DNA of 64,000 bases from a virus: IMG/VR virus record IMGVR_UViG_3300045988_151707, positions 32,001-96,000 of that record. One strand, given 5' to 3'. Under the pieces are notes generated by a model. That model made no database searches, was not told the origin of the DNA, and worked only from the letters and a program-made list of their open reading frames with translations. Made by a program: the position numbers and the translations under genes. Positions 5,151-51,878 of the stretch are shown one piece after another (the stretch's first letter is position 1; every line of letters begins with the position of its first letter).

Positions 5151-8100
5151 TTATTTTATCAGTCCGCGTTTGGTCATAAAATTGCTGGCTTTGTTCAACT
5201 GGTTTACCGCACCCTTGCTCCCGTATGGGTCTACAGCGGCTCTAATCGGCTTGCTCAGACGCTCGTTCAGTGTGGAAAGCGCTTCGGCCACACTCCCGAG
5301 CATTTGTGTCATCTGCTCGTTCTGCATGGTCATATCCGTAGCTCCGGATGCTACCTGTGTAATCTGTGCCGGCATGGAAGGATAGTTCCCGCTGGCAAAT
5401 GTAGGCATGGCGGCCGATTTGAGCTGCCCGTGCCGCGCAATGGTAAGAATACTGTCGTAGATGTGCGGATAGTTCAGAATAAGCTTCTGTGTAGTATCGC
5501 CGTCCACAATCATTTCAGGCTTCTTTTCAGAGAAAATACCGAAATGCGCACCTCCGCCGTACACGCCCGTCTTCAGTTCCTTCTGGTAGCGTGCGTTGTA
5601 TATCTGTCCGTCGTTCCCAAGTACCGGATAGTCACCCTCTGCGTAGGTAAGCATTCCGGCTGCTACACGGCCCTTGCTGCTGCTTACTCCGGTGGCAGCT
5701 GCCACATCCTGCTTTGCCTTGTTTAGCTTACCCATGGCAAGGCCCATCAGAGCGGAAAGTGCCGCACTGATAACTGCAATCAATGGGATACCCCACCATC
5801 CTAGGTCTCCGATTGTTTTTGCTGATCCCCTCGCAATACCAGAAGTTACATCTCCTGTAGTCTTTGCCCCTTCTACTGTCATATCCGTAATGGCCTGCGA
5901 CCCATGAATAGCTGTAACAGTAGCACTTGTAGCCGCTTCCTGTGTTACTTCCTGGTCTCCAAGAGTCTTCTTCATCAACAACTCGGTTATTTTTTGCATA
6001 ATCAAGTCTTTGGTGAGTTTCATCGCTGTTTGGAGTAACATTTTTGCAGCTTGCTTACGGTCGTCCACTTCGGCAAATGCAGCTTCTCCCATCTGCTCAC
6101 TGAAATCTACTACTGCATCGGTGTAGTTTTTCAATGTGCCCAACTTGCTTTCTGTTATTTCCAGTTCCTTGGAAGATTGTTCCTCCCTTGCGGCTATGTA
6201 GTTGTCGTAAGCCTCCTTTTGCGCCATGAGGAAAGATTCTTCTGCCTGCTGTTGCGTAGCGCCGGAAGCAATGGCCTGCTGTATCAGTTCTTTCTTACGG
6301 CTTTCAAACTGCTCATAATACTGCGCTGCCGCTTCCAATTTTATTCGCAGCGCTTCCAGTTCGGCATTGTCCGTGTCGGAAGTACCAAGGAAGGAACTTT
6401 GAGTAGATGCCAGTCCCAGATTACCGGCTGCACCCATCAGCTCACTCTGATCGTCAGCACCTTTTATCCGGTCCTCCCAAAGTTTCTGGTTTCCGCTGGT
6501 TTCCCACTGCACGTCTATCATTTCCTTTATGTCCTTTGCATACTTCTCGGCAGCGGCCTTGGAATCCTGATAGAAATCACGCAGCTTTTTCAGCATGAGC
6601 GACATCTGCTCCGGGCTCATGCTTTCGGCCCATACCGCGTCAATGTTGCTAAGATAAGTGCGCAACTCGTCTTCGTTCAGGCTGTAAGCATCTTCCGACA
6701 GAGAAACAAGGGCATTAATTCTTTCCTTCACTGCACTCTCGTCAATCACTCCGCTAAATCCCAGACTCATACGGAACTCTTTCTCCGCATCGGTATTCAG
6801 CAGACGAAGTTTGTCGAGCGACTCCTCAAACTGGTTGACAAGGCTTTCAAACGGGTTGTATTTAAGCAGCTCCTTCTCGATAGTCTGACGGTATTTCACT
6901 GCCATGTTCTGTACTTCGAGCAGGTCTTTTTCAAGGTTCTTACGTAAGCCGTCGGTCTGACGTTCGCCCAGCTTCTTAATCAATGCAGCGGTAGATTCCA
7001 GGTTCTTACCTTCCATCCCGTATAAATTCTGATTGAAGGTGTTCTCCTCGCCCAACAGCTTTTTACGAAGCTCCACACGTGCCAGCAGATGTTCTTCCTC
7101 GGTCGCGTCAATCTGACGGTTCATCTCCTCAGTAGTTATCTGTTCATCGAGATATGCCTGACGGATAGCCTGCTGACGGCGGAGGAAGTAAGCTTCGAGC
7201 GCAGACATGGCCGCACTGATTTCATCATTCATTTCCTTCTGCTCACCACGTGTGCCTGACTTACGTACTTTTAGCCAGTTACCGCTTGTGTCGCGTCCCC
7301 ATTTCTCAGCCAGCACCTTGGCCACATCCTGCTCCATCTTTTTCAGCGCCTCGTATTCTTCCTTAGCCGACTTGAATCCACGGGCAGCGAAGGTGTCTGC
7401 ATAGTCCTTGTCCTCATTAATGCTCTTCATCATGGCCTCCAGCTTTTTGTAGGTAGCTACCAGCTTGTCTACTCCGGCTGTTTCCAGCGATACCCCCTGC
7501 CCCCATACAGACTCCAGTCCGATGGCCTTAATACGTTTTTCCACCTGACTGATGTTATTCTGATACACACCAAGCTGACGGTTCTTTTCAGCAAGTTCGG
7601 CTGTTTCTGCCTTGGTGAGCTTCTCTCCTTTCTCACGCTTCGCGTTCAATTCGTCCACATCTTCACGAAGACGCTGTACGTAAGTAGTGGCCTGCTGCAG
7701 ATAGGTATTCAGTTCAGGCAGGTCGGACGAAGAAAGAATGCCCTGGTTGGACTTACGGAGGTCTTGCAACATAAGCTCTTCGGTCTTGCTCTCGGCAGCA
7801 CGCTGCGTACTTTCAAGGAAAGTCTGAGTCTGTCCGGCTTCCTTCCGGATGTTTTTCAGGATGTTCATCAGTTTTAAAGCGTCGGAACTGAATGGGAGCT
7901 GCTTTATGTTCTTGTCATATTTCTCCATAAAGCCATCCAGCGCGTCGTACAGATTACCTCCTTCCTCCACTACCTTATTCATCCCGTCCATGATACGGGC
8001 CATGGCATCGCCGGCGTTGGTCTCTCCGACGTTTTCCATTTTGTTCAGCGAAGCAATAATCTTCGACTGTAGTTCCTGAATCTGGTCGGTGTATTTGTCG

Positions 8101-11100
8101 GCAATGTTTTCCATCATCTTGTCGCGCATCTTCAGCGCCAGCGTTTCACGAAGGCGGGCATTAATCAGGCTGTAAATGTATTCCTGCTTCTCGGCATAGT
8201 TGTTTTCAGTGACCATAAATCCCAGATAGGCCCCATACTTGTCATTCAGCTGCTTAATCAGTGCCGCACGCTCTCCGTTCGATACATTTGCCTTGTCAAT
8301 CGCATATTTCAGGTTGGAAAGTTCAAATGTTTCCTTCTGTATGGCTGCTTCAAATTCCGACTGTGCCTTTGTTGCTTCGTCTACTGATTTCTTGAAATAA
8401 GTAACGGCAGAGGTCAGCGCAGTAAATCCTAATACAACCCATCCTAATGGATTTGACATCATAGCCTTTGAAAGCGACTGCCAGGCTATTTTGAATATGT
8501 TCACAGAGGCTGTGCCACTTTTCACCATCTTCGTAAACAGCACAATGTTTGCACTCGCTTTCTGCACAGCAGAAGACGTGGCAATCATCACTCCTACCAG
8601 CACCTGAAGAGCTACTGCGGTCAGACGGATTGAAGTCTCTCCGCGTTCAAACCGGTTGGGAATGCTCGAAATATAGCGAAGCACATCAGTTAGCCATTCC
8701 ACAAATCCGCTGTTGATAAACGATTCCTTGATGGCGTTCCCCATACGCTGCATGATGGCCATTGCGTTTTCGTTCTTGATGTTGTATTCATCCGTCACGC
8801 TGGTAGCCTCCTTAAACGCACGGGAAGAAGTGAATACCTGCGCCTTCAGCTCGTCTACGCCGGAAGAAAGGGTAACGAGCACCTGCTTGATACGCTTGCC
8901 ATCGCTACCGAGGTCTTTCATAATCGGAGCCAGCACATCCAGTCCGCCCATAGCATTCATTTTCTCGAATACAGCGATTACGGCCTGAATGGTTTTACCC
9001 TGTTCAATCAAGTTTTTCAAGTAATCATCGCTCAGTCCCACAGCCTGCGCCACCTCGGTGGTGTTACTGGTAAGTGTAGAGATAAAGGTGTTCAAAGCCG
9101 TACCACCCATTTCGGCGTGCTGACCAAGCGCGTCGAGTGTGCCGGCCAGCGCAATCAGGTCGGACATGGAAAGTCCTGCCGCTTCTCCGATAGCTCCGAT
9201 ACGGTTTACTACATCGACAATCGGACCGGCAGAAGCACGGCTGGTCTGAGATATTTCGTTGATAGCAGAACCGGTGGCGAGCAAGGCTTTTTCCACTCCG
9301 AGCTTCTGTGTCTCACCCAGAATGGCATTCACCTTCATCAGCTGACGTACCGCTTCAGCTCCTCCTAAATCTTCTCCCAATGCTACGAGCAACTGATTAC
9401 CTGCCTTCACGAATCCCAACACATCTTCTTTGGCAGAAATTCCTAACTTACCGGCTTCGTATGCCAGGTCGTGAAGTTCCTGCTGTGCGGTACGGGTGTC
9501 GATACTGTCAATTTCACGGCTTAGCTCGGCTACTGACTCAGTGGAAAGCCCGGTGGTCTTCTCGATGTCGGCCAGACTGTCGCTCAGCTGCAAGTTAGCC
9601 TGATACAACTGCTTGATACGTCCTACCACCTCATTGAATCCGGCATATACCAGCACATAACTTGTCAAACGCTTGATGGTAGCTACAATCTGGTTATCGT
9701 GTTCCTGCCAGCTTCGCTTCACTTCATTAATCTGCTCGTTTACCCGACGCAGATTCATTGAAGCTTCCATGTATTCGCGCGTGTCACGCTCAGCTTCCGA
9801 AAGTTCTTGCTGAAGCTGCGCCGCAGCCTTTTGCAAATCTTCCAGTGGAGCGGTTTTAAGTGTAAGAATCACTTTGTTAAGTTCTTCTGCACTTAATACG
9901 GAACTTTTCTGTTTCTTCTCAATCGTGCTCAGCGCATCTTCAATTTTTTTCAAGCCTTTTGTATCGCTTACTTCAAGCTTCTTTTTATACTCTTCGAGCG
10001 ATTTTTTCAGCTTCTCAAGGTCTTCGTATGTACCGTCGAACGTACCTTGACCAACCGTTTCAGCTTTATCAAGCGCATCTTCCAGTGAAGTAAATTCGGC
10101 AGATGATTGTTTCAGTTTCTCATTAAGTGAATTGATGGCCGATTCTACCTCCTTTACTCCCTTTGTGTCGCTTGTCTTTAGCTGCTGCTTGTATTGTTCA
10201 AGCAACTTGATGGCTTCTTTTGTCTGGGCTATTGTGCCATCGAATGTGCCGGTCTGTACTTTCCCTAGTGTGGTTTGAGCACGATTGGAAATGCGGTTCT
10301 GCTCTTCCTTGATAACCGCTTCCAAATTTTGCTGGTATTGCTGTAGTTTCTGTGAAGAAAGTTCTGCCCCATCCACCTGCTCCTGCCAGAACTTTTTCAG
10401 TTCAGCCAGTGAGGATGTGCTGGCATTCCCAATATTCTTCATGCGCTCTGCAATAGCCGCATTTTTACTTGTATTCTCAAAATCAGAAAGATACTTCTTA
10501 GCTCGCTCAATGTACTGATTATATATATCCCATTGCTTTGAACCAAGTTCTGTCGCATCACGAAGTTGGGTTGTTGCCTTAATTGCATCCTGAATCTCAG
10601 TAAGGCTACTTCCACTTAAATTACTGAATACACTGACTGCGCTTTTAGCCGAGCGTTTCTTCTCTTCATCCAAAACCTGTTTAAGCTTTGATTCGTATTC
10701 AGCAAGTTCCTGACTTCCACGCTGCGCACCGTTTACCTGCTCCTGCCAGTATTTTTTCAGCTCGGCCAGGGATGATTCACTGGCTTTCCCCAATTCTTTC
10801 ATCCTATCGGACATGGCAATCTGCTTTGTCAGGCTGTTGAAATCCGACAAATACTTCTGCGCACGCTGTATTTCATCATTGTAAATCTCCCACTCCTGTC
10901 CGCCAAGCTTCTGAACATCACGAAGCTTTGTTGTCACATTAATGGCTTCCTGGATTTCCGCGACACTGCTGCCATCCAGATTACCCATTACACGACCAGC
11001 CTTTGAACTGATACGACGTTGTTCCTCGTCCTCCACCTTTTTCAGCTGTTCACGGTAGGTCTGAATCTCTTTTGTATTTTTCTGAGTGGTAGAAATAAGT

Positions 11101-11615
11101 TCCTGCAATCGCTGTTTGGCCATGCCAAGCGACTTGTCGCTCACATTGCCTATGTCGCCTATTATGTCGGAAAACTCTACAAGGTTCCCTTTCCGGCGCT
11201 GTGCTTCATCGGCTATCTGTTTGATGTAATCGCGAACTGTATTAAGCGTTTGAAGGTCTTTCGGGTTTACCCCAAGCAACATCTGTTTCAAGCCATTCTG
11301 AGCGTTATTAAGATTACGTAGAGTCTGTCCGGAAATATCTGTAAGGTATTTCTGCACAGTATTAATATTCCGTTCAGATTCAGTTATTGACTTCTGAAGT
11401 TGTTTTTGCTGCTTTAAAGCATCTTCATATATCTTTTTATTCTTGTCGTAAGCAACCGTATCCACAGTAGCCTGCATGTTTTTCTGGGCTTCCTGTGCCT
11501 GTTTACCAAGCTTCTTCCATTCTTCACGCATCTGTTCAACCTGCTTACGGGCCTGTTCCGCTCCGCCTATAAGCACGTCGATTCTAGCCAGTCTGGTACC
11601 TAAACTATTTGCCAT
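5151..11615 (-). CDS. tail tape measure protein (2154 aa from ATG at 11615)
   Basis: Very long ORF, alpha-helical and coiled-coil rich, with internal tandem repeats of about 120 aa. It has a hydrophobic central segment and a Gly-rich C-terminal membrane-like segment. The ORF-track N-terminal extension (11616-11771) covers a promoter and hairpins and is rejected. Confidence 0.85.
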   Translation of the reverse strand: MANSLGTRLARIDVLIGGAEQARKQVEQMREEWKKLGKQAQEAQKNMQATVDTVAYDKNKKIYEDALKQQKQLQKSITESERNINTVQKYLTDISGQTLRNLNNAQNGLKQMLLGVNPKDLQTLNTVRDYIKQIADEAQRRKGNLVEFSDIIGDIGNVSDKSLGMAKQRLQELISTTQKNTKEIQTYREQLKKVEDEEQRRISSKAGRVMGNLDGSSVAEIQEAINVTTKLRDVQKLGGQEWEIYNDEIQRAQKYLSDFNSLTKQIAMSDRMKELGKASESSLAELKKYWQEQVNGAQRGSQELAEYESKLKQVLDEEKKRSAKSAVSVFSNLSGSSLTEIQDAIKATTQLRDATELGSKQWDIYNQYIERAKKYLSDFENTSKNAAIAERMKNIGNASTSSLAELKKFWQEQVDGAELSSQKLQQYQQNLEAVIKEEQNRISNRAQTTLGKVQTGTFDGTIAQTKEAIKLLEQYKQQLKTSDTKGVKEVESAINSLNEKLKQSSAEFTSLEDALDKAETVGQGTFDGTYEDLEKLKKSLEEYKKKLEVSDTKGLKKIEDALSTIEKKQKSSVLSAEELNKVILTLKTAPLEDLQKAAAQLQQELSEAERDTREYMEASMNLRRVNEQINEVKRSWQEHDNQIVATIKRLTSYVLVYAGFNEVVGRIKQLYQANLQLSDSLADIEKTTGLSTESVAELSREIDSIDTRTAQQELHDLAYEAGKLGISAKEDVLGFVKAGNQLLVALGEDLGGAEAVRQLMKVNAILGETQKLGVEKALLATGSAINEISQTSRASAGPIVDVVNRIGAIGEAAGLSMSDLIALAGTLDALGQHAEMGGTALNTFISTLTSNTTEVAQAVGLSDDYLKNLIEQGKTIQAVIAVFEKMNAMGGLDVLAPIMKDLGSDGKRIKQVLVTLSSGVDELKAQVFTSSRAFKEATSVTDEYNIKNENAMAIMQRMGNAIKESFINSGFVEWLTDVLRYISSIPNRFERGETSIRLTAVALQVLVGVMIATSSAVQKASANIVLFTKMVKSGTASVNIFKIAWQSLSKAMMSNPLGWVVLGFTALTSAVTYFKKSVDEATKAQSEFEAAIQKETFELSNLKYAIDKANVSNGERAALIKQLNDKYGAYLGFMVTENNYAEKQEYIYSLINARLRETLALKMRDKMMENIADKYTDQIQELQSKIIASLNKMENVGETNAGDAMARIMDGMNKVVEEGGNLYDALDGFMEKYDKNIKQLPFSSDALKLMNILKNIRKEAGQTQTFLESTQRAAESKTEELMLQDLRKSNQGILSSSDLPELNTYLQQATTYVQRLREDVDELNAKREKGEKLTKAETAELAEKNRQLGVYQNNISQVEKRIKAIGLESVWGQGVSLETAGVDKLVATYKKLEAMMKSINEDKDYADTFAARGFKSAKEEYEALKKMEQDVAKVLAEKWGRDTSGNWLKVRKSGTRGEQKEMNDEISAAMSALEAYFLRRQQAIRQAYLDEQITTEEMNRQIDATEEEHLLARVELRKKLLGEENTFNQNLYGMEGKNLESTAALIKKLGERQTDGLRKNLEKDLLEVQNMAVKYRQTIEKELLKYNPFESLVNQFEESLDKLRLLNTDAEKEFRMSLGFSGVIDESAVKERINALVSLSEDAYSLNEDELRTYLSNIDAVWAESMSPEQMSLMLKKLRDFYQDSKAAAEKYAKDIKEMIDVQWETSGNQKLWEDRIKGADDQSELMGAAGNLGLASTQSSFLGTSDTDNAELEALRIKLEAAAQYYEQFESRKKELIQQAIASGATQQQAEESFLMAQKEAYDNYIAAREEQSSKELEITESKLGTLKNYTDAVVDFSEQMGEAAFAEVDDRKQAAKMLLQTAMKLTKDLIMQKITELLMKKTLGDQEVTQEAATSATVTAIHGSQAITDMTVEGAKTTGDVTSGIARGSAKTIGDLGWWGIPLIAVISAALSALMGLAMGKLNKAKQDVAAATGVSSSKGRVAAGMLTYAEGDYPVLGNDGQIYNARYQKELKTGVYGGGAHFGIFSEKKPEMIVDGDTTQKLILNYPHIYDSILTIARHGQLKSAAMPTFASGNYPSMPAQITQVASGATDMTMQNEQMTQMLGSVAEALSTLNERLSKPIRAAVDPYGSKGAVNQLNKASNFMTKRGLIK

Positions 11616-11635
11616 GTCTTTGTGTTTGTTTCCCT

Positions 11636-11678
11636 CAAAGTTAGGCACCCGAAATGTGGAAATGAAGGACAAAAAAAC
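11636..11678 (-). promoter_or_regulatory. late promoter copy 1 (TTTTTTTGTCCTTC-N-TAACTTTG)
   Basis: Minus strand reads GTTTTTTTGTCCTTCA, with 26 nt between the TTTG and the TAACTTTG box. The leader AAACAAACACAAAGAC precedes the ATG. Confidence 0.7.
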
Positions 11679-11705
11679 GGTGTCCGTCAGTTCAACGGAC
11701 ACCGT
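11677..11705 (-). terminator. rho-independent terminator whose U-tract is the T-run of late promoter 1
   Basis: 11-bp stem ACGGTGTCCGT/ACGGACACCGT with a 7-nt loop. On the minus strand it is followed by TTTTTTT. Confidence 0.6.
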
Positions 11706-11720
11706 TTTAAAACTATTCGC

Positions 11721-11791
11721 CAGCAACCTCTCAAGTGGTTTGCGGCAAACCTCTCGAGCGATATGCAGCAAACCACTTGAGAGGTTTGCTG
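11721..11791. repeat. long inverted repeat (about 22-bp arms, about 24-nt loop containing a third partial copy)
   Basis: CAGCAACCTCTCAAGTGGTTTGC pairs with GCAAACCACTTGAGAGGTTTGCTG. The loop carries GCAAACCTCTCGAG. Confidence 0.6.
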
Positions 11792-11864: not shown

Positions 11865-12374
11865 TTACAATAATCCATTAACCATCACTTCCGCATACAC
11901 CATCCCGAACGCTATCACCTCCGCCCAGAACAGCGGTTTGCACAACACGAAGCTATACCATAAATCGCCATTCCATACTTGTTTCAAGCGTACACCGACA
12001 TATAATGCCCACGCAATCCACACAAGCAGAAGACACGGACAGGTAAGTGCTATCCATATCTGACTGTTGAGCGCAGCTATCGTGGTAGCGACGATGTGTA
12101 CAGGCCGGTCCATCCCGGCTTTGAAATTGGGTGCCGCACCCACGAATAGTAACGCTCCGCACATCAGAAATGCGGTGAACTGATAATTTTCGGGGGTAGC
12201 AGATAGGAGGGTGGGCATGAGCAGTAGGGATGTTGCGGTCATGGTGAAGCCGAACCACAGCTTATGTTTCAACGAATAGTATGTGTCGCTGATGGAATAT
12301 GGTATTCCGTTGCGTTTCACCATCACCCCCACGTATGTGAGGATGACAGCTATTGATAAGAGTATGAGTATCAT
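11865..12374 (-). CDS. multi-pass membrane protein
   Basis: 169-aa ORF that is almost entirely hydrophobic helices. Its start overlaps the upstream stop (ATGA-type coupling). Confidence 0.55.
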   Translation of the reverse strand: MILILLSIAVILTYVGVMVKRNGIPYSISDTYYSLKHKLWFGFTMTATSLLLMPTLLSATPENYQFTAFLMCGALLFVGAAPNFKAGMDRPVHIVATTIAALNSQIWIALTCPCLLLVWIAWALYVGVRLKQVWNGDLWYSFVLCKPLFWAEVIAFGMVYAEVMVNGLL

Positions 12375-12895
12375 TTTGTGTTCAGATTAAGTTTTTCAGG
12401 ATATCCGGTTGTGTGGTCGTAGGCTTCCACTTCTTTCACGCTTTGCAGGGCTTCCACATTCGCCTTGTGTTGTGCCGTTACGTTGTAGCACTGCAGGGCG
12501 TACAGTTCGAGGGCGGAGAGCATCTGTATAGCTGTGTCGCACTCGATGGTGTAGCTTTTGTCTCCGAACCAGAGTGTAGTGGTGAGCATCGAGGCTGCCT
12601 TCTGTATCTGGGTGGAGTTCATCAGTCCTACGCGGGTGTTCTTGTCGAGCCAAACGGATTCGCCGTCGAGAGTGAAGCTGTTTACCGCGTCGCTCGTGTC
12701 GTAGCTTTCTATCTCGAATATCTTTGCGGCTTTTTCGGCTCCCAGTTCGTCGGTGGGCAGTTCGCTTACTTCTTTGAACATTTCCTCCATGTCGGAAGGA
12801 AGGCGGTTTGCACGCTTGAAATAGATGTTTGTTCCGATACGATTTATGTACAGACCTTCTGTACTGTAAATCTCTTTTTCTGTAAATTTTATCAT
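12371..12895 (-). CDS. hypothetical phage protein (possibly DUF4376-like)
   Basis: 174-aa ORF. The stretch FTLDGESVWLDKNTRVGL resembles tail-fibre-associated DUF4376 proteins from memory only. Confidence 0.4.
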   Translation of the reverse strand: MIKFTEKEIYSTEGLYINRIGTNIYFKRANRLPSDMEEMFKEVSELPTDELGAEKAAKIFEIESYDTSDAVNSFTLDGESVWLDKNTRVGLMNSTQIQKAASMLTTTLWFGDKSYTIECDTAIQMLSALELYALQCYNVTAQHKANVEALQSVKEVEAYDHTTGYPEKLNLNTK

Positions 12896-13266
12896 AATGT
12901 CACGATTGAGATTGATGGTTTGTTTTTCAGTGCTGACTGGATTTCTTCGTCTTCAATGATTGAGGCATAGTCTTTTGCCGGAAGTGTGAGTGGGATAACG
13001 GAGTTGCTGTCTGTATTCTCGATAAAGAACAGCAGTGCCTCGCGGCTTATGCCGGGTTCTTCGGTTATCGTTCCCCATTCCTGCACTATGCAGGTTTCGT
13101 ATTCGCGATTGATGAAGAAGTCTGCTCCTTCGGGTTTCTCTGTTTCGCAGTATGGCTTGTAGCCTTGTGCGATGATTTCTTCTTCAGCAAGTTTTCCGCC
13201 TACTTCCTGTCCTTTCTCTACTTCTTTGACGAGTAGCTGGTCATTTTCGATTTTTGCGTACTTCAT
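12892..13266 (-). CDS. hypothetical protein (start moved to ATG 13266)
   Basis: The internal Met removes the overlap with the RT 3' end. The protein is acidic and 124 aa long. Confidence 0.45.
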   Translation of the reverse strand: MKYAKIENDQLLVKEVEKGQEVGGKLAEEEIIAQGYKPYCETEKPEGADFFINREYETCIVQEWGTITEEPGISREALLFFIENTDSNSVIPLTLPAKDYASIIEDEEIQSALKNKPSISIVTL

Positions 13267-13303
13267 GTTATCAATGTTTTTAAATGTTGCTATCAGTTGT
13301 CCG

Positions 13304-14776
13304 TTATGCTCGCATATATGCAGGTTCGCGGAGCTGTAGGGGGAGCCTCCTTTTCGGATAGTACCTTTCCGGCGGTCTGAATATGGAAGCATAGTCGTTC
13401 AGGTTTAGATATGATGTCTTGTTTGGTTTGTATTTGCTTTTCAGCACACAGACGAAGCTGCCGTTCTTGTTGCGGAAATACAGCCATTCGGAAAATGTTT
13501 CCAAAGCTTTCTTTGCTATGCGCTTTTTGATGTTGAAGGATGCTGTTCCTTTCATCAGACCGAAATAGCTGTTTATGCTTTGCATGACGTGTACGGCGTT
13601 ATCGTACGACGGCATCCGGCTGTATTCTTCTATCGCTGTATGAAGGGCGTGTACTGTGCGGTTGGATATGTAGATACGGTTCAGCTTTACTACTTTTCCG
13701 CAGAACTTTACTCCGTGTGAGGCCGGCTGTATGTAGAATTTATCGGGATGGACTTTTAGTTTCAGCCGTCCGGTCGCTTTTATGAATACTTTCCGGGCAT
13801 GGATTATTTCGGCTGCTGTTTCTGCCACCACGCATATATCATCTACAAACCGTGTGTATCTCACTCCGGCTTTTATCATTTCCGCATCAGCTTCCGCCAT
13901 GACGAGGTTTGCGAGGAGTTGGGAATAGAAGTTTCCTATCGGGAGTCCTTTATCGGGTGGAAGTCCGAAAAGGCTTTTGTTGGGCGGAACTTTATCCCAC
14001 ATTTTTATATCGGAGCGTCGCTCGCAGTCTGTGGCCGGATTGTGCTGTATCAGGGTGTGAAGCAGGGAGAGTTTTTCTTCCTTATCGGGTTTATCGTAAT
14101 ACATATCGGCGTATTTCCGAAAGATGCGGTATGCTGTTTCCTTGTCTATCGACATAAAGAAGCCTGATATATCCATTGTGGCCACAAAGGCTTTCTTTGT
14201 GTAACCGTCCGTTACATCACGAATATTCCGCTGTATCTGCTCGATGGCTGTAGATGCGGAATGCCCGATACGGTTGCCGTGGCTTACATCACCATTGGCT
14301 TCGTGGACTTTCTCGCATATCTCGCCAAGCATCGGAGCGACGTAGTGGTGCACGATACGGTCGGTGTAGTTAGCTGCAAACACTTCTCTATATACAGGAT
14401 AGTCGAGGACAAAACAGATGCTTGTCTGTGGCTGGTAGCCGTTGTCTATTCTGTTTATCAATTCATAAATACGCGACAGGTTGAAATGAAACGATGCTGC
14501 TTCGAGCGATGCGTGCTTGTTTTTGTAACAGTCACTTTCGGCAGCTATCCAGGCGGGCACTTTTTCTGATAAATCGGAGGCCGGCACCACGCTATAGGTG
14601 TTGTTCGTGTTGTTGTTGTTCAAGTTGCCATTTCCCATGTTCACATACCAGGCGTTGTTGCCATTGTTGCGGACACAGCTCCAGACGTTGCCGCCCAGGA
14701 CTTCTGCCCTGTTAATCGAAATAGCTTGCTCACCGCAAGCACAGGGACCTTTATCATTAAACAGTTCTGCCGACAT
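13304..14776 (-). CDS. DGR reverse transcriptase (the ORF as drawn includes the TR in frame; a GTG at 14560 is an alternative start)
   Basis: Motifs seen: REVFAANYTDRIVHH (motif 1/2), LPIGNFYSQLLANL (the DGR-type IGxxxSQ signature) and FVDD (YxDD box). It lies directly downstream of the TR. Confidence 0.9.
   Translation of the reverse strand: MSAELFNDKGPCACGEQAISINRAEVLGGNVWSCVRNNGNNAWYVNMGNGNLNNNNTNNTYSVVPASDLSEKVPAWIAAESDCYKNKHASLEAASFHFNLSRIYELINRIDNGYQPQTSICFVLDYPVYREVFAANYTDRIVHHYVAPMLGEICEKVHEANGDVSHGNRIGHSASTAIEQIQRNIRDVTDGYTKKAFVATMDISGFFMSIDKETAYRIFRKYADMYYDKPDKEEKLSLLHTLIQHNPATDCERRSDIKMWDKVPPNKSLFGLPPDKGLPIGNFYSQLLANLVMAEADAEMIKAGVRYTRFVDDICVVAETAAEIIHARKVFIKATGRLKLKVHPDKFYIQPASHGVKFCGKVVKLNRIYISNRTVHALHTAIEEYSRMPSYDNAVHVMQSINSYFGLMKGTASFNIKKRIAKKALETFSEWLYFRNKNGSFVCVLKSKYKPNKTSYLNLNDYASIFRPPERYYPKRRLPLQLREPAYMRA
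14575..14701 (-). repeat. DGR template repeat (TR), 127 nt
   Basis: Gapless alignment to 15219-15345. All 15 mismatches are A in the TR on the coding strand. It translates as an Asn (AAY)-rich peptide. Confidence 0.92.
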
Positions 14777-14779
14777 AGT

Positions 14780-15133
14780 TCAAGACTTTTCGGATCTGAC
14801 ATTCTTTATCCTCGCAAGCGAAGATAAAATATTATCGCACAAAACGTCTATTACAGACGCTTTCTCTTTGCTGCATCCTCCAAGAGCCACTATCAAGTAT
14901 ATCCCGAACTGCAACTCGTATGTCAGTTCTGTAGCTCTTTTATAATAGTCCATTCCACGGACCTGGCGCATAGCGTAGATGAAGAGTAATGCGCCTTGCT
15001 TCAGCATAGGATCTATATATGTTCTGCTTATGACCTTATAAGCTTTGCTGTTGATTTCTATGAGACAATTATTCAGGCGTATCACATCCTGAATAATCGG
15101 TGCGTCCAAATGTTTCCTCCCGGATCTGTTCAT
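14780..15133 (-). CDS. avd: accessory variability determinant (Avd)-like helical protein
   Basis: 117-aa helix-rich ORF in the canonical position between target gene and TR. Its stop is 3 nt from the RT-ORF ATG. The call is positional rather than motif-based. Confidence 0.55.
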   Translation of the reverse strand: MNRSGRKHLDAPIIQDVIRLNNCLIEINSKAYKVISRTYIDPMLKQGALLFIYAMRQVRGMDYYKRATELTYELQFGIYLIVALGGCSKEKASVIDVLCDNILSSLARIKNVRSEKS

Positions 15134-15183
15134 TTCTATTGTCGCGTATTAAATGTTAATATATTTTAATGCAAAAGTTAATG

Positions 15184-15202
15184 AGCCGTGCTCCGCACGG
15201 CT
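15184..15202 (-). promoter_or_regulatory. GC-rich hairpin 3' of the VR (DGR target-recognition hairpin/cruciform candidate)
   Basis: AGCCGTGC-TCC-GCACGGCT, an 8-bp stem that ends 17 nt beyond the VR 3' end. Confidence 0.55.
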
Positions 15203-15210
15203 GAGATAAA

Positions 15211-16629
15211 TCAAAAAGCGGAGGCCGGCACCACGCTACAGGTGCCGTACGCGTTGCCGTAGTACAAGGTGCCATTACCCATGTGCACATACCAGGCGTA
15301 GTTGCCACTGTAGCGGACACAGCTCCAGACGTTGCCGCCCAGGACGCCAGGTATGCCCCATTTTTCATAACTGTTAAGATAGTTTATCAATCCTGAAATT
15401 ATGCTTTTGTTTGTCCAGTATGGATATAATTCTTTCTCTCCTGCCATATACTTCCCTTCAAGTGTTTTGATGTAATACACAGCATGAGAGTCCGCCATAT
15501 TCCATTCGTAATTTGTACTGGAATTTCCCGGTCTGCTTATGTATGGGGTAATGATATACCAATAACCGTCAACGGTTATGGCTTCCGCTCCTTTTGCGCC
15601 CGGAGAAAGAAGAGGTCGTTCGGCGGAGTTTACTCCGGTGTCGTTCATGTTTACACCGTTTGTTTTCTGCTGTTCGTACAGCCATTCAGCGTATTCAGGT
15701 TTAAAATAATATGCGTTGTTTACTGAATACTTATTATTTGTATTGTACATTGCTTTCAAACCTGTGTTCTGGCCGTTTACGAAGAAAAACATATCTTCAC
15801 CTAACTGAGCCTGTACGCCTGATGAATTTAGGATTTCCACATCGGTTATTGTGCCTTCTGCTTCAGAAGATGTTATGCCGCTACAGATGGCAAACCTGTG
15901 GCGAAGCCATTCATTCTGTACATACATGGATTCAAGACGTTCGGCGTAATTATCCGCTATCATAGCATTTACATTACCGCAATTCTTTTCCATTATCCAG
16001 CGTTGCTTGGTATTACCGCTATAAAGTTCAAGCTTGTCGTCTTCCGTTACGGTTACGCTCCAGTCGGCTGCGAAGTGACTTCCTGCAGCATGGGTGCCAA
16101 GGTTCTCATCTATGGTTCCATGATAGTCTGTTCCTTCTCCTGTTCCGGTTCTCTGATCGTATTCATAAACGGAATGCTGCATTGCGTTTGATGCTTTGCT
16201 TGTAGTACCGGACGTGGCGTAATATTCTCCCTGCCACGGCCAATACAATATCGTTCTTATCCCGTTGCACTCCAAAGAGAATCCTACCGGAGGAGCAATG
16301 AGTTCGTTGTCGAAGCCGTTGGCCACGCTGCGCTCGTTCCATTCTTTTACCGTGTAATGCTTCAGGTCTGCATCTACAATCTTGATATGGTCGTTTGTAG
16401 CTACGGCTTCCGTCTTGCCTTCTTTTGTTGTGATGGCAGTGGAGCGTACCGGCAGTATCAGCATTTGCGATTCAAAGGCGTATTCATCCCCTGTCGGAAT
16501 GGCTGCTATTTTAGCCGGATATTCGGAAAGGATTTCTCCTACATTTTCTACACCCTTTGCTTCAATGGCTGCCTTTATGGCGGCTTTGCTTTCTTTTAAC
16601 TTGTTTAGTTTGTCTGCTGTCGTTCCCAT
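15211..16629 (-). CDS. DGR target (variable) protein; tail-fibre/receptor-binding candidate with a C-terminal variable domain
   Basis: 472 aa. The last ~42 codons are the VR (VLGGNVWSCVRYSGNYAWYVHMGNGTLYYGNAYGTCSVVPASAF). The N-terminus is fibre-like (KLNKLKESKAAIKAAIEAKG). The gene is translationally coupled to the upstream coiled-coil gene. Confidence 0.85.
   Translation of the reverse strand: MGTTADKLNKLKESKAAIKAAIEAKGVENVGEILSEYPAKIAAIPTGDEYAFESQMLILPVRSTAITTKEGKTEAVATNDHIKIVDADLKHYTVKEWNERSVANGFDNELIAPPVGFSLECNGIRTILYWPWQGEYYATSGTTSKASNAMQHSVYEYDQRTGTGEGTDYHGTIDENLGTHAAGSHFAADWSVTVTEDDKLELYSGNTKQRWIMEKNCGNVNAMIADNYAERLESMYVQNEWLRHRFAICSGITSSEAEGTITDVEILNSSGVQAQLGEDMFFFVNGQNTGLKAMYNTNNKYSVNNAYYFKPEYAEWLYEQQKTNGVNMNDTGVNSAERPLLSPGAKGAEAITVDGYWYIITPYISRPGNSSTNYEWNMADSHAVYYIKTLEGKYMAGEKELYPYWTNKSIISGLINYLNSYEKWGIPGVLGGNVWSCVRYSGNYAWYVHMGNGTLYYGNAYGTCSVVPASAF
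15219..15345 (-). repeat. DGR variable repeat (VR), 127 nt
   Basis: 112/127 identical to the TR. Every difference falls at a TR adenine. The conserved 3' GC-rich end CGTGGTGCCGGCCTCCG is IMH-like. Confidence 0.92.
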
Positions 16630-16880
16630 TATATCACCTCCCCGTTTATTTCATCAAGTACTGTGTTTATATCTCCTATAGCATTGCTTAAATCCTGAGA
16701 GGTGGCGTACCCTTTCTGCGCAAGAGTTTCTTCTGTTACATATCCTTCAGGAACTTGCTTTAAAGAAGAATTTACTCCATCAACGAGTTCGTCTATCTTC
16801 TTCGTTATAGCGTTCATTTCATCAGACTGCAACACCTGCTCTCTGGTGAATGTTTTATTTAATTTCTGAATATCTGCCAT
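16629..16880 (-). CDS. small coiled-coil fibre-associated protein
   Basis: 83-aa helical ORF whose stop overlaps the start of the DGR target gene. Confidence 0.5.
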   Translation of the reverse strand: MADIQKLNKTFTREQVLQSDEMNAITKKIDELVDGVNSSLKQVPEGYVTEETLAQKGYATSQDLSNAIGDINTVLDEINGEVI

Positions 16881-17023
16881 GGCATATTATTTTAATTTGT
16901 TTACATCGAGCTTTCCTTTGTCGAGTACGAGGTATTTTTCTTCAGGAGGAGATATATGCTTTTTCTTCTTAATCTCACAGAATCTATACGTCAAAAGCTT
17001 AAACGTATTTAGCTTAATAGGTT

Positions 17024-17363: not shown

Positions 17364-17533
17364 AGCTGTATATATATCGGATAAGACTACTTTTTTAAAA
17401 GGGAATCTAATTAAAATTGTCTCACATTTTATATTTTACACCGTTTTTCAGCACTTTTTCCATTTAATCAGAAATTGTGAAACTCAAACACAACCAAATC
17501 AATATTTTTGCAATAAACAAACTACTTATCATT

Positions 17534-18208
17534 ATGAAAAAAAACTTATTTTTTACATTGACTTTAATTTTAATTATGTGCTTGTTTACTTCTTGCGGAA
17601 GTACATATATGGCTGTTTACGATTTAGGTCTTTCTTCTGTTGAAAGCCCTTCATACTCAAAAGATCCATTTGGTAATTCGGAAATAGTAAAGATTTCTGA
17701 TGAAGTCCCTTCAAAAAATAAAAAGGCTCAGATTGTAAACAAATACAGATACACGGATAAATACATTGACATTGTGTGGTGGTACTCTACCACTCAGTTT
17801 GAATTTGAGCTGAAAAATGTTTCAGAAAAAACACTGAAAATAAATTGGGATGATGTAACCTTTATGGACTATACAGGTAATATAAGCCGGATTATGCACA
17901 AAGGAGTAAAATACATAGACAAAGATAAAAGTCAGGGAAGCATAAGCATACCCAAAAACGGAAAGCTAAACGATATTATAGTCCCTACGTCAAATGTATA
18001 TTTCAGTCAGGGGTTTGGCGTTTATGTTCCTTCTGAATGGAAACAAAAATCAATCATTCCATGTTTCTACAAGAGTAAGAAAGAAATGCAGAATGATATT
18101 GACAATAAAATTTGGATAGGTAAAAAAGTACAAATACTTTTCCCGATAGAGATTGAAGGAAAGAAAAATGACTACAATTTTGAGTTTACAGTTAACGGTA
18201 CATACTGA
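17534..18208 (+). CDS. lipoprotein encoded opposite to the late operons (moron; superinfection-exclusion candidate)
   Basis: Signal peptide and lipobox MKKNLFFTLTLILIMCLFTSC. It has its own TATTTTTG box at 17503-17510, its own terminator, and AT-rich composition. Confidence 0.7.
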   Translation: MKKNLFFTLTLILIMCLFTSCGSTYMAVYDLGLSSVESPSYSKDPFGNSEIVKISDEVPSKNKKAQIVNKYRYTDKYIDIVWWYSTTQFEFELKNVSEKTLKINWDDVTFMDYTGNISRIMHKGVKYIDKDKSQGSISIPKNGKLNDIIVPTSNVYFSQGFGVYVPSEWKQKSIIPCFYKSKKEMQNDIDNKIWIGKKVQILFPIEIEGKKNDYNFEFTVNGTY

Positions 18209-21126: not shown

Positions 21127-21681
21127 CTACCATTGCAGCAGGTTGTAATTAAGCGTAACGCCCAGAAACGGTTCTGTCTTCCCTGAAAGCCCTATCCCGC
21201 ATCCGGCGCTCAGTCCTATCCCCCACCTCTTTTTTTTCGGTGCCGGTGCATTTACCACCCCCGTCTGTGTGCGGCGGTAAAACTCTGCCGACACCAGTTG
21301 CGGGCGGTACCCTGAAATGACTATCCGGTAGTCGTCCGTGCGGTATTCCTTCTCTGTGAGAGGAATAATCACGTCCACGTTGTCTTTCCCTGTAGAAAGC
21401 GAATCAGAAACAACCGTAACCGTATCCGCTATGCTGTCCGGGATGGAAGCTGGTCCGGACGGTTTCTGCGGACGATATACCGGAAGGCGTGCGGTGTCTG
21501 TTCCTGCGGGACGCTCTGACACGGGAGGAGCAACTGCCGTGTCGCGTATCGTATCTACCCTGACGGGAAGCCATACGGTATCACCCTGCCCAGACTGCGG
21601 CGACGCGCATCCACGGAAGAAAAGCGAAAAGAGGAGCGCGGCCGACAGCAAGCCTACCAGTATCCACGGGAGCTGTTTCAT
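21127..21681 (-). CDS. membrane-anchored lysis-cassette protein (spanin-like candidate)
   Basis: N-terminal TM/lipobox-like LFSLFFRGC, a Pro-rich linker and a C-terminal Gly-rich beta segment. It overlaps the amidase stop. Confidence 0.45.
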   Translation of the reverse strand: MKQLPWILVGLLSAALLFSLFFRGCASPQSGQGDTVWLPVRVDTIRDTAVAPPVSERPAGTDTARLPVYRPQKPSGPASIPDSIADTVTVVSDSLSTGKDNVDVIIPLTEKEYRTDDYRIVISGYRPQLVSAEFYRRTQTGVVNAPAPKKKRWGIGLSAGCGIGLSGKTEPFLGVTLNYNLLQW

Positions 21682-22250
21682 ACGCCAAGGTATTTACAGA
21701 TTCCCTGCACATGCAGCGTGACAATCTTCTGTCGGCCTTCATCCGACAGAAGGAAGTCCACATCTTCGCGATTGTCCTGGAAAAGGTTTTCCGTCAGCAC
21801 AGCCGGGCAAATGGTATGCTTCAGAATGCAGAAACCGCTTTCCTTGTCGCTGTCGCCGTCGGCGGTGTCCTTACGAATCTTCATTCCTTTCAGCACCTGC
21901 TCTGCACTCTGATACAGACATTCGGCCAGTTTGTCGGCCTTGGTCTGACCTACGCTGGTCCATGCCTCCCATCCGCGTGCGGTCATCCACTGCGTGCCGC
22001 TTCCGGCAGCGTTGCAATGGACGGATACCAGGATGCTGTCTTTCACCCGGTTGGCGCGTGCGCACCGTTCCTGAAGCGAAATGTCTTCCTCTTCCGGAAC
22101 GAGCAGCTGCGCGTCCAGCCCTTTCTTCTTTAGCGCATCTACCACGCGGCGTGCAATGTCGCGTGCATAGGCATATTCGCGCAACCGTCCGTCGGGCGAC
22201 TGCTTCCCTTTGGTGTCTGCACCATGACCGTTATCAATCCAGATTTTCAT
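21678..22250 (-). CDS. N-acetylmuramoyl-L-alanine amidase (Amidase_3-type endolysin)
   Basis: WIDNGHG...E, SVHCNA and PAVLTENLFQDN match the zinc amidase_3 motifs. Confidence 0.8.
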   Translation of the reverse strand: MKIWIDNGHGADTKGKQSPDGRLREYAYARDIARRVVDALKKKGLDAQLLVPEEEDISLQERCARANRVKDSILVSVHCNAAGSGTQWMTARGWEAWTSVGQTKADKLAECLYQSAEQVLKGMKIRKDTADGDSDKESGFCILKHTICPAVLTENLFQDNREDVDFLLSDEGRQKIVTLHVQGICKYLGV

Positions 22251-24086: not shown

Positions 24087-24383
24087 CTGTGTGTGTTGAT
24101 AAAACTCTCATCGAAGAAGGGAATCCCTGTTTTCCCTATCACGCCGCTAAATTACAAAAAATATTTATATCCGAATAAAACGGATATGTTTTTTTGACAA
24201 TTGAATGCTTATTTGCACTTTAAAACAATAAAAAGGGGAATATACCTCTCTTGGAAATATCCCCCTTTATGCATCTAATAATTCATTAAGAATTATAGCT
24301 GCAAATATAGCTTTTTATTATGATTGACATCTTGTTTATGCTTAATTTTTAATATATTTATAGTGTATCTAATAATAATCATT

Positions 24384-51830: not shown

Positions 51831-51878
51831 TTTTCTTCTTTTTGGGGTTTTGGTTTGGTTTATTTGTAAAATTTGAAA

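What the first reader, a model, noticed from the sequence alone, without database searches (positions are those of the whole stretch)
13304..16629. Complete diversity-generating retroelement aimed at a fibre-like protein
**TR/VR alignment**
- TR (14575-14701) and VR (15219-15345) align without gaps over 127 nt.
- I count 15 mismatches. Every one is an adenine in the TR on the coding (minus) strand, out of about 36 TR adenines. There are no differences at C, G or T.
- The TR translates as NNGNNAWYVNMGNGNLNNNNTNNTY. The VR reads YSGNYAWYVHMGNGTLYYGNAYGTC.

**Gene order and motifs**
- The order is the canonical one: target gene, Avd-sized helical ORF, TR, then RT.
- The RT carries the IGNFYSQ and FVDD motifs.
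- An 8-bp GC hairpin lies 17 nt 3' of the VR.

DGRs are a known class. This one sits on what appears to be a plasmid-like Bacteroidales phage.
Basis: partly seen in the sequence, partly recalled or inferred. Interest (0 to 1): 0.8.

Follow-up and report, generated by a model that had tools for sequence, protein, structure and literature searches.

The report
Active phage diversity-generating retroelement
This is a genuine, recently active diversity-generating retroelement of a gut Bacteroidales phage that rewrites the last 40 amino acids of one phage protein; the kind is well known, but here the template repeat sits in frame inside the reverse-transcriptase gene.

Summary
TR (14571-14701) and VR (15215-15345) align without gaps. 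All 15-16 mismatches fall on TR adenines (P about 5e-10).

The interpretation as a complete DGR is supported:
- A profile of the RT clade hits the Bordetella phage DGR RT far better than any other solved RT.
- The 117-aa ORF has no sequence match to Avd, but its model folds into an Avd-type four-helix bundle.
- The hairpin after the VR is conserved with covarying outer pairs.
- Metagenome contigs identical over the other 3,195 nt of the cassette carry VRs that differ at 15-18 positions, nearly all TR adenines. The element is therefore active, or was very recently.

Two claims remain unproven. "Fibre-like" rests on gene context only, and the C-type-lectin fold has only weak DUF1566/Lcl_C matches.

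Two features go beyond the finding:
- The TR lies in frame inside the RT ORF (codons 26-69). The RT start abuts the avd stop. This layout holds in 107 of 110 related RTs.
- A conserved stem-loop (14724-14740) lies just 5' of the TR.

Verdict: a new member of a known kind with a little-described layout. Interest is moderate.

The parts
15211..16629 (-). Target gene (472 aa), with the variable region at its extreme 3' end. Function unknown. Its start overlaps the stop of an 83-aa ORF at 16629-16880.
   Evidence: ORF. About 395 homologues of 450-480 aa, none with a Pfam domain. No PHROG or phage hit. The C-terminal profile hits the Lcl C-terminal domain (8q4e) at E=0.0026, and Pfam Lcl_C matches weakly in 9 of 11 members.
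15215..15345 (-). Variable repeat (VR), 131 nt, encoding the last 44 codons of the target. The variable adenine-derived positions span 15333-15239.
   Evidence: Of the 35 TR-A positions shared by all genomes, 31 vary among 7 related VRs. Of the 92 other positions, 3 differ, one of which reflects a TR-side difference in the window.
15219..15237 (-). GC-rich 3' boundary of the VR (AGCGTGGTGCCGGCCTCCG). It is identical in the TR (14575-14593) and is IMH-like. The sequences diverge immediately downstream: VR CTTTTTGA, TR ATTTATCA.
   Evidence: The last mutated adenine is TR position 107. Position 109 and beyond do not vary.
15184..15202 (-). Hairpin / potential cruciform downstream of the VR: AGCCGTGC-GGA-GCACGGCT. 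It begins 8 nt after the target stop codon. No counterpart follows the TR.
   Evidence: fold; the NNNCGTGC-GGA(N)-GCACGNNN pattern recurs in most diverged loci with covarying outer pairs. No comparable hairpin lies on the TR side.
14780..15133 (-). Accessory gene (117 aa, pI 9.5), a structural homologue of Avd.
   Evidence: No sequence hit in Pfam, PHROGs, NCBIfam or PDB. AlphaFold model pLDDT 94. Foldseek top hits are 2gsc, 4dwl (Avd), 2rld and 8ub8_D (Avd in the DGR RNP), with TM 0.72-0.81. pI.
13304..14776 (-). Reverse transcriptase ORF (490 aa). The ATG lies 3 nt after the avd-like stop. Residues 1-25 are a leader, 26-69 are TR-encoded, and the RT core starts at about residue 70.
   Evidence: RVT_1 4.8e-15. 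phrog_1423 3.9e-51. The clade profile hits bRT 8ub7_A at 5.5e-23, against 8e-14 for the next hit. K87, R130, I280, G281, Q286 and the FVDD motif are conserved.
14724..14740 (-). Conserved stem-loop 5' of the TR (GCUUGC-GGUGA-GCAAGC), inside the RT leader codons, ending 22 nt upstream of the TR/VR homology.
   Evidence: present in 17 of 17 clade loci; 94% of cells paired, two pairs changed on both sides, covariation 0.261 against 0.118 in shuffles (0 of 500 reach it).
14571..14701 (-). Template repeat (TR), 131 nt, in frame within the RT ORF. It has 37 adenines (36 in the 127-nt core), 12 AAC and 2 AAT codons. No codon can mutate to a stop.
   Evidence: The TR is invariant among six related contigs whose VRs all differ.

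Best explanation
This is a functional diversity-generating retroelement carried by a large (about 108 kb) phage of gut Bacteroidales.

**Proposed mechanism**
1. The avd-like gene and the RT gene are expressed as one translationally coupled unit.
2. The same transcript carries the TR, as codons 26-69 of the RT ORF.
3. The basic Avd-fold protein and the RT bind this RNA and reverse-transcribe the TR, inserting random nucleotides opposite template adenines.
4. The cDNA replaces the VR at the 3' end of the 472-aa gene. Replacement is guided by the shared GC-rich 3' boundary and the VR-specific hairpin.
5. The result re-randomises up to about 20 codons, giving about 1e21 possible proteins. The affected region is a DUF1566/C-type-lectin-like C-terminal ligand-binding surface of a protein that is probably virion- or tail-associated.

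**Shown here**
- The repeat pair and its A-specificity.
- The DGR-type RT and the Avd fold.
- Conserved cis hairpins 3' of the VR and 5' of the TR.
- Population-level VR hypervariation against a constant TR.

**Inferred from the BPP-1 paradigm**
- The RNA intermediate, cis-priming and homing.
- The receptor-binding role of the target.
For: **Repeat pair**
- A-only TR/VR mismatches: 16 of 16, P about 5e-10.
- The TR has 36 of 38 adenines at codon positions 1-2, 14 AAY codons, and no possible stop.

**Activity in populations**
- Six contigs from different samples share an identical TR and RT but carry six different VRs.
- 31 of 35 TR-A positions vary. 3 of the 92 other positions differ, one of them through a TR-side difference in the window.
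- L001, L003 and L004 have 0 differences in 3,195 nt outside the VR and 15-18 differences within the 131-nt VR.

**Proteins**
- The RT clade profile hits bRT (8ub7_A) at 5.5e-23, nine orders of magnitude better than Cas6-RT-Cas1 or group II RTs.
- The bRT residues that contact template and dNTP (K29, R74, I181, G182, Q187; preprint 10.1101/2023.10.23.563531) correspond to conserved K87, R130, I280, G281 and Q286.
- The accessory protein models as an Avd-like bundle: pLDDT 94, top Foldseek hits 2gsc, 4dwl and 8ub8_D. Its pI is 9.5.

**Cis elements and relatives**
- The hairpin after the VR is conserved with covariation in diverged relatives and absent after the TR.
- All 18 diverged intact loci examined have their own A-specific TR/VR pair.
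Against: - No direct evidence for RNA or cDNA intermediates.
- No read-level polymorphism within a single sample was examined; the evidence is between-sample variation in assembled contigs.
- The Avd assignment rests on a predicted structure. Foldseek E-values are modest (5e-3 to 8e-2), and there is no sequence-level match beyond one family member hitting PF05635 at E=0.023.
- The target's fold and function are not established.
- No Sp-like or cPRT-stop-like RNA structure could be found downstream of the TR.
- 2 of 92 non-A positions differ between a VR and its own TR. Ordinary point mutation explains this.
Confidence: 0.93

Rival explanations
1. A fossil DGR. The components are all present but the element no longer diversifies, and the TR/VR differences are a relic.
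For: - Decayed relatives exist. L009 is a target-RT fusion with a truncated RT.
- L028-L030 have A-depleted, corrupted TRs.
- No within-sample read data were examined.
Against: - In this lineage the RT, the avd-like gene and the A-rich TR are intact.
- Contigs that are 100% identical over the other 3,195 nt of the cassette carry VRs differing at 15-18 sites. That requires very recent mutagenic events.
Confidence: 0.05
2. An ordinary tandem duplication of a gene fragment that diverged by point mutation or recombination, lying next to an unrelated retron-type or group II intron RT.
For: - By single-sequence search the RT hits group II and retron models in NCBIfam, all far below their cut-offs. 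It also hits retron and group II PDB chains.
Against: - All 16 mismatches fall on one base of one copy (P about 5e-10).
- The same asymmetry is seen in all 18 diverged intact loci examined.
- The profile search puts bRT first by nine orders of magnitude.
- No group II intron or other RNA family was detected in the window.
Confidence: 0.01
3. The RT is translated only from a start downstream of the TR. The in-frame TR is then a gene-calling artefact with no translated product, and the layout is functionally the canonical avd-TR-RT.
For: - DGR reviews state that the TR is not translated (PMC5758913).
- A GTG at 14559-14557 and an ATG inside the TR could serve as starts in this window.
- No protein-level data exist.
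Against: - No start codon is conserved between the TR and the RT core across relatives.
- The ATG upstream of the TR abuts or overlaps the avd stop in all eight locus types with gene calls.
- 107 of 110 related RTs keep the TR in the VR reading frame and in frame with the RT, despite several leader and linker indels that are all multiples of 3.
- bRT aligns from its residue 13 onward, immediately after the TR peptide, which leaves no room for a separate leader.
Confidence: 0.3

Closest known systems
Bordetella phage BPP-1 DGR (mtd-avd-TR-brt)
   Same: - Gene order of target, avd, TR and RT on one strand.
- A-specific TR-to-VR transfer into the last ~40-45 codons of the target.
- GC-rich 3' boundary and a VR-only hairpin.
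- Basic four-helix-bundle accessory protein.
- RT with the IGxxxSQ motif and the conserved template/dNTP contact residues.
   Different: - In BPP-1 the TR is intergenic, followed by a 140-nt non-coding spacer (Sp) that primes cDNA synthesis. An avd:Sp duplex stops cDNA synthesis.
- Here the TR and everything downstream of it are RT coding sequence. The upstream element is a local stem-loop. No Sp-like structure was found.
- The Avd protein is not recognisable by sequence.
- The target is unrelated to Mtd.
Bacteroides phage BS-TP1 DGR (PQ571274.1, gp25-gp27), the closest annotated phage
   Same: - Target, then a four-helix-bundle protein, then a ~490-aa RT whose annotated CDS contains the Asn-rich TR in frame, then a DUF4376 protein.
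- 14 of 14 TR/VR mismatches at A.
- An analogous stem-loop followed by UAC upstream of the TR.
- Genome of about 110 kb.
   Different: - The RT is only 34% identical.
- The target is a much larger protein (CDS of about 6.6 kb).
- The accessory protein is 171 aa and overlaps the RT start.
- No other window protein tested matches this phage.
Legionella pneumophila LdtA DGR, and Bacteroides uniformis 'Bacuni' phage DGRs (DUF1566 / CLec2-type VRs)
   Same: - The VR sequence class: the W-x-[SA]-x...A-W-Y-V-N...G pattern with weak Lcl_C/DUF1566 matches.
- Bacuni phages also have a TR inside a called ORF (PMC8143477).
   Different: - In Bacuni phages the TR ORF is separate from the RT, and the RT match starts at residue 77 of this RT.
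- LdtA is a bacterial surface lipoprotein on an ICE.
- Here the DUF1566 matches are below Pfam's threshold.
Hankyphage DGR (Bacteroides dorei, Benler 2018)
   Same: - A temperate Bacteroides phage DGR with a 117-bp repeat pair, 14 A mismatches and a small Avd-sized ORF (PMC6199706).
   Different: - Hankyphage is a 43-kb Mu-like transposable phage with a target of more than 2,200 aa.
- No nucleotide similarity to this window.

Membership tests
Diversity-generating retroelement (DGR) | Reverse transcriptase of the DGR clade (IGxxxSQ in motif 4; closest to bRT) | tested here: met
   The LPIGNFYSQ and FVDD motifs are present. The clade profile hits bRT 8ub7_A at 5.5e-23, with the next hit at 8e-14. 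Equivalents of bRT K29, R74, I181, G182 and Q187 are conserved. No formal phylogeny with reference DGR RT sets was possible.
Diversity-generating retroelement (DGR) | Near-identical TR/VR pair whose mismatches fall on adenines of one copy only | tested here: met
   16 of 16 mismatches at TR adenines over 131 nt. P = 4.8e-10 for the 127-nt core.
Diversity-generating retroelement (DGR) | VR at the 3' end of a protein-coding target. TR adenines concentrated in codon positions 1-2 (AAY codons) with no stop codons reachable. | tested here: met
   The VR is the last 44 codons of the 472-aa ORF. 36 of 38 adenines lie at positions 1-2, with 12 AAC and 2 AAT codons and 0 codons that can become a stop.
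Diversity-generating retroelement (DGR) | Accessory variability determinant (Avd): a small, basic, four-helix-bundle protein | tested here: met
   Met by predicted structure only. pLDDT 94. Foldseek top hits are 2gsc, 4dwl (Avd), 2rld and 8ub8_D, with TM 0.72-0.81. pI 9.5. Sequence searches were negative. One family member hits PF05635 at 0.023.
Diversity-generating retroelement (DGR) | IMH-like GC-rich 3' boundary shared by TR and VR, plus a GC-rich inverted repeat downstream of the VR only | tested here: met
   A 19-nt identical GC-rich end is followed by divergence. The 8-bp hairpin lies at 15184-15202. It is conserved with covarying outer pairs in relatives and absent after the TR.
Diversity-generating retroelement (DGR) | Evidence of activity: VR hypervariable at TR-A sites in populations while the TR is constant | tested here: met
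   identical TRs and six different VRs. There are 15-18 VR differences against 0 in the remaining 3,195 nt for L001, L003 and L004. The comparison is between samples, not within a sample.
Diversity-generating retroelement (DGR) | Variable residues displayed on a C-type-lectin (or Ig) fold | tested here: inconclusive
   The AlphaFold model of the target is poor (pLDDT 54, and below 50 over the VR) and Foldseek on it was meaningless. The C-terminal profile hits the Lcl C-terminal domain 8q4e (a DUF1566, C-type-lectin-like domain, PMC11162425) at E=0.0026. Pfam Lcl_C matches 9 of 11 members at about 0.01, below the gathering score.
Diversity-generating retroelement (DGR) | TR-RNA intermediate, cis-primed adenine-mutagenic cDNA synthesis, and retrohoming | not testable with these tools
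   Requires RNA or cDNA sequencing, or biochemistry.
Group II intron / retron | Associated structured RNA (intron domains or msr-msd) and an RT that scores above the family cut-off | tested here: not met
   NCBIfam group II RT scores 73 bits against a cut-off of 300. The retron St85 model scores 56 against 235. No Rfam family was detected anywhere in the window.

The most novel reading that the evidence does not exclude
In this Bacteroidales-phage DGR clade the template repeat is translated. The RT would be made as a fusion carrying a ~25-aa leader plus a ~44-aa Asn-rich peptide copied from the target's C-terminus. One RNA segment would then serve both as mRNA and as mutagenesis template.

This arrangement could impose cis-preference, with the nascent RT loading onto the RNA that encodes it. 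It could also set up competition between translation and reverse transcription.

The conserved stem-loop 5' of the TR (14724-14740) would replace the long-range avd:Sp 'cPRT stop' duplex of BPP-1 as the upstream RNP anchor or cDNA stop.

A corollary follows from both repeats being in frame with their genes. VR x TR recombination and mis-homing would yield in-frame target-RT fusions and corrupted TRs. Both are seen in relatives (L009, L028-L030).
Probability: 0.45. Interest if true: 0.55.

Novelty: new member of a known kind. Interest (0 to 1): 0.38.

Why it matters
DGRs are the only known natural system of targeted protein hypermutation in prokaryotes, and gut Bacteroidales phages are a major reservoir. 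This element adds little as a class, but it is useful in three ways.

- **Evidence of activity.** Otherwise identical cassettes carry different VRs, which is unusually clean natural evidence of recent activity. The target family has about 400 members and no annotation. It is probably a receptor-binding or adhesion module of an uncultured ~108-kb phage lineage.
- **Compact layout.** The TR lies inside the RT ORF, the avd stop abuts the RT start, and there is no non-coding spacer. This challenges the working assumption that the TR is untranslated and that a dedicated non-coding Sp RNA is needed. It offers a natural system for asking how template use and translation are partitioned.
- **A testable cis element.** The conserved 5' stem-loop is a concrete mutagenesis target, for example by compensatory mutation.

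Decayed relatives with corrupted TRs and VR x TR fusions illustrate how DGRs die.

Tried and rejected
- **Megablast of 13000-17000 against annotated phages:** no match.
- **tblastn against annotated phages:** no match for the target or the 710-aa tail-region protein. The phage lineage has no annotated relative. Only the RT finds distant phage hits.
- **Sequence searches for Avd** (Pfam, PHROGs, NCBIfam, PDB by single sequence and by profile): negative. Only the structure prediction resolved it.
- **AlphaFold2 of the whole target with 41 homologues:** pLDDT 54, and the Foldseek output was meaningless.
- **PHROG scan of 41 target homologues:** nothing informative.
- **RNAalifold on TR 3' end plus 150 nt downstream** in 7 diverged loci, to look for an Sp-like or Avd-binding stem-loop: no conserved structure, -1.45 kcal/mol.
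- **RNAduplex between sequences upstream and downstream of the TR**, to look for a cPRT-stop-like duplex: sprawling, inconsistent pairings that could not be interpreted.
- **Rfam and tRNA scans of the window:** nothing.
- **Literature search for an explicit description of a TR overlapping the RT ORF:** no hit. Roux 2021 says only that the TR is 'in most cases intergenic'. I therefore cannot show the layout is undescribed.
- **Rejected explanations:** retron, group II intron, chance repeat, and a second VR elsewhere in the window.


Full report
**1. Observation**

On the minus strand, 14575-14701 and 15219-15345 align without gaps over 127 nt. There are 15 mismatches, and every one is an adenine in the 14.6-kb copy (7 A>G, 6 A>T, 2 A>C; 36 adenines in that copy). 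The repeat finder extends the pair to 131 nt (14571-14701 / 15215-15345), and the extra mismatch is again at an A. The chance that all 15 differences fall on A is 4.8e-10.

A scan of both strands with the TR, ignoring A positions, finds no further copy in the 64-kb window. The quoted peptides, the IGNFYSQ and FVDD motifs and the hairpin are all present as described. The hairpin is AGCCGTGC-GGA-GCACGGCT at 15202-15184.

**2. The components**

*Reverse transcriptase.* The 490-aa ORF 13304-14776(-) is a reverse transcriptase (Pfam RVT_1 4.8e-15; phrog_1423 3.9e-51). As a single sequence it cannot be assigned to an RT class. A profile of 23 homologues (A1) hits the Bordetella phage DGR RT (8ub7_A; the entry series is titled 'DGR ribonucleoprotein reverse transcriptase') at 5.5e-23. 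Cas6-RT-Cas1 scores 8e-14 and group II or retron RTs score 1e-12 or worse. The bRT residues that contact the template base and incoming dNTP are K29, R74, I181, G182 and Q187 (preprint 10.1101/2023.10.23.563531). They align with K87, R130, I280, G281 and Q286, which are invariant or nearly so in 121 sequences.

*Accessory protein.* The 117-aa ORF 14780-15133(-) has no sequence match in Pfam, PHROGs, NCBIfam or the PDB. The word-indexed search found four relatives. An exhaustive HMMER search found a family of only 32. A profile still found nothing in the PDB, and one member touched PF05635 at E=0.023. With 20 family members AlphaFold2 gave a confident helical bundle (pLDDT 94). Its best Foldseek matches are exactly the Avd family: Xcc0516 2gsc, Avd 4dwl, BT_0352 2rld and the Avd chain of the DGR RNP 8ub8_D. 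TM-scores are 0.72-0.81 and rmsd is about 2 Å over ~108 residues. The protein is basic, with pI 9.5.

*Target.* The target is the 472-aa ORF 15211-16629(-). It has about 395 homologues of similar length with no Pfam domain, no PHROG match and no match in annotated phages. The full-length model was poor (pLDDT 54, and below 50 across the VR), so fold comparison was meaningless. A profile of the last ~135 residues hits the C-terminal 49 residues of the Legionella Lcl C-terminal domain (8q4e, E=0.0026). That domain is a trimeric DUF1566 domain with a C-type-lectin-like fold (PMC11162425). Pfam Lcl_C (DUF1566) matches 9 of 11 members at about 0.01, below threshold. This places the VR in the 'DUF1566/CLec2' class of Wu et al. 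(PMC5758913). The fold itself is not demonstrated here.

*Is it a fibre?* That reading rests on context only. Downstream lie a DUF4376 / phrog_1807 tail-fibre-like gene (12371-12895) and a 2,206-aa tape measure gene (5151-11771).

**3. Is it active?**

Seven metagenome contigs encode an RT 97% identical to this one. In the six that include the target, the TR is identical, and it differs from the window TR at 2 positions. The six VRs are all different.

Of the 35 TR-adenine positions shared by all genomes, 31 differ from the TR in at least one of the seven VRs. Of the 92 other positions, 2 differ between a VR and its own TR. A third difference reflects the TR change itself.

L001, L003 and L004 come from different samples. 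They have no difference in the remaining 3,195 nt of the cassette but 15-18 differences in the 131-nt VR. It implies very recent mutagenic homing.

The TR has the usual design: 36 of 38 adenines at codon positions 1-2, 12 AAC and 2 AAT codons, and no codon that can become a stop. That allows about 1.9e22 DNA variants and 1.4e21 protein variants.

**4. Cis elements**

*3' boundary.* The TR and VR share an invariant GC-rich 3' end (AGCGTGGTGCCGGCCTCCG) and then diverge, like IMH and IMH* in BPP-1.

*Hairpin 3' of the VR.* This hairpin recurs in relatives whose RTs are only 41-62% identical. The pattern is NNNCGTGC-GGA(N)-GCACGNNN, with different, complementary outer pairs (AGC/GCT, AGT/ACT, GGG/CCC, GTC/GAC, CC/GG and others). 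No comparable hairpin follows the TR.

*Stem-loop 5' of the TR.* This was an unexpected second element. The Gln codon in the RT leader is CAA in every locus with the motif, and 'CAAG[TC]TA' is invariant at the nucleotide level. By contrast, conserved residues of the RT core use all their synonymous codons. The motif is the 3' arm of a stem-loop, (A/G)CUUG...CAAG(U/C). It is present in 17 of 17 clade loci, 22-39 nt upstream of the TR/VR homology. In the window it is GCUUGC-GGUGA-GCAAGC at 14740-14724.

On a 15-sequence alignment, 94% of cells pair. The closing pair is A-U in 12 sequences and G-C in 3. The seventh pair is U-A, C-G, A-U or G-C. The covariation score is 0.261 against 0.118 ± 0.027 in shuffles (0 of 500 reach it), and slid registers collapse to 18-51% paired. 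Four of the seven pairs never vary, so the support is moderate. BS-TP1 has a stem of unrelated sequence (ACUCCGU...ACGGAGU) in the same place, followed by the same UAC.

In BPP-1 the essential upstream RNA segment forms a long-range duplex with the spacer, the 'cPRT stop'. I could not find an equivalent duplex or a downstream stem-loop here.

**5. The TR is inside the RT ORF**

The RT ATG (14776) lies 3 nt after the avd-like stop. The TR occupies codons 26-69 in the same frame as the VR is read in the target.

- The same layout holds in all 23 aligned homologues, down to 37% identity.
- It holds in 107 of the 110 closest cluster representatives that have a full N-terminus.
- It holds in all 18 diverged intact loci examined, each with its own A-specific TR/VR pair.
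- It holds in the isolated Bacteroides phage BS-TP1, whose GenBank RT CDS includes the TR.

Leader and linker lengths differ among lineages, always by whole codons. No start codon is conserved between the TR and the RT core. The upstream ATG abuts or overlaps the accessory gene's stop wherever genes were called. bRT aligns from its residue 13 directly after the TR peptide.

I infer, with probability about 0.7, that the RT is translated through the TR. Whether the peptide has any function is unknown. Wu et al. state that the TR is not translated. Roux et al. say it is 'in most cases intergenic'. The Bacuni phage paper lists a separate 'TR containing gene'. My phrase search found no explicit description of an in-frame TR-RT fusion, which does not prove there is none.

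**6. Context**

The minus-strand block runs, in order of transcription:
- amidase (21678-22250);
- several small ORFs;
- the 83-aa ORF;
- target, avd-like gene and RT;
- a 124-aa ORF;
- the DUF4376 fibre-like gene;
- a small membrane protein;
- the tape measure gene;
- 710-aa and 373-aa proteins.

Elsewhere the window carries an integrase-like tyrosine recombinase (24324-25367), a ParA ATPase (43973-44785, 2e-54), a DnaA_N-containing protein (47117-48580) and a block of DNA-modification genes. Related contigs reach 102-110 kb. Relatives of the RT sit in MAGs of Bacteroides, Prevotella, Paludibacteraceae and other Bacteroidales. The 'plasmid-like' reading is therefore plausible but not decided.

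**7. Verdict**

This is a complete and recently active DGR, and a new member of a very well-populated class: gut Bacteroidales phage DGRs with DUF1566-type VRs.

Three points go beyond the routine. The evidence of natural activity is clean. The layout, with the TR embedded in frame in the RT ORF, is conserved across the clade. A conserved stem-loop lies 5' of the TR. I score interest at 0.38.

Noticed in passing
L009 5113-6819 (Bacteroides sp. MAG HRGM_Genome_3449, NZ_DXVR01000071.1): A collapsed DGR. One 568-aa ORF fuses an N-terminally truncated target, through a VR/TR hybrid, in frame to the RT. The accessory gene is deleted and the RT ends before the YxDD motif. It lies next to a bacterial rpoN gene. 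It looks like a VR x TR recombination deletion in a prophage remnant.
   Followed up: partly
L028/L029 3061-3215, L030 3061-3215 (relatives P0029, P0024; also P0028 from Bacteroides caecigallinarum and P0030): A subgroup of related RTs (linker 'SEFDII') carries an adenine-depleted, VR-like sequence where the TR should be. In L028 the RT-side copy differs from the VR at only about 6 sites. In L030 the RT-side copy has G at 8 sites where the target copy has A, and no accessory gene is called. This suggests TR corruption by gene conversion or mis-homing, and so decaying DGRs.
   Followed up: partly
window 15346-16629, compared with L001-L006: The non-VR body of the target gene is mosaic among close relatives. 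L006 has an RT 99.8% identical to L001 but a target body only 90.4% identical. The window is 95% identical in the RT and 91% in the target. Variation peaks at 16100-16500 and 15400-15500. This suggests allele exchange in the target in addition to DGR mutagenesis.
   Followed up: partly
window 43973-44785 (+), 47117-48580 (+), 24324-25367 (+): A ParA-type ATPase (AAA_31, 2e-54), a 487-aa protein with a C-terminal DnaA_N domain, and an integrase-like tyrosine recombinase. Together they fit either a plasmid-prophage or an integrative temperate lifestyle.
   Followed up: no
window 50874-62839 (-): A cluster of nucleic-acid modification genes: radical SAM (50874-51830), a 571-aa DNA methyltransferase (51879-53594), DUF4494 (55227-55958), DUF1599 'nucleotide modification associated domain 1' (56735-57940), a PAPS-reductase-like protein (60027-60875) and an N6/N4 methylase (62174-62839). 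This may be a DNA hypermodification module.
   Followed up: no
window 17477-18208 (+): A lone plus-strand gene inside the minus-strand structural and lysis block. An internal start gives MKKNLFFTLTLILIMCLFTSCGS..., a lipoprotein-type signal peptide with a lipobox cysteine. It is conserved in related contigs (224 aa, opposite strand) and may be a moron or superinfection-exclusion lipoprotein.
   Followed up: no
window 5151-11771 (-): A very long tape measure protein (2,206 aa from a TTG start; 1,939-1,956 aa as called in relatives). It has visibly repeated segments (for example ...SSLAELKKYWQEQVNGAQ... and ...SSLAELKKFWQEQVDGAE...). Unusually, the DGR cassette sits upstream of the tape measure gene rather than among distal tail-fibre genes.
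   Followed up: no
window 1-64000: No tRNA genes and no Rfam family at gathering threshold anywhere in the 64-kb window.
   Followed up: yes
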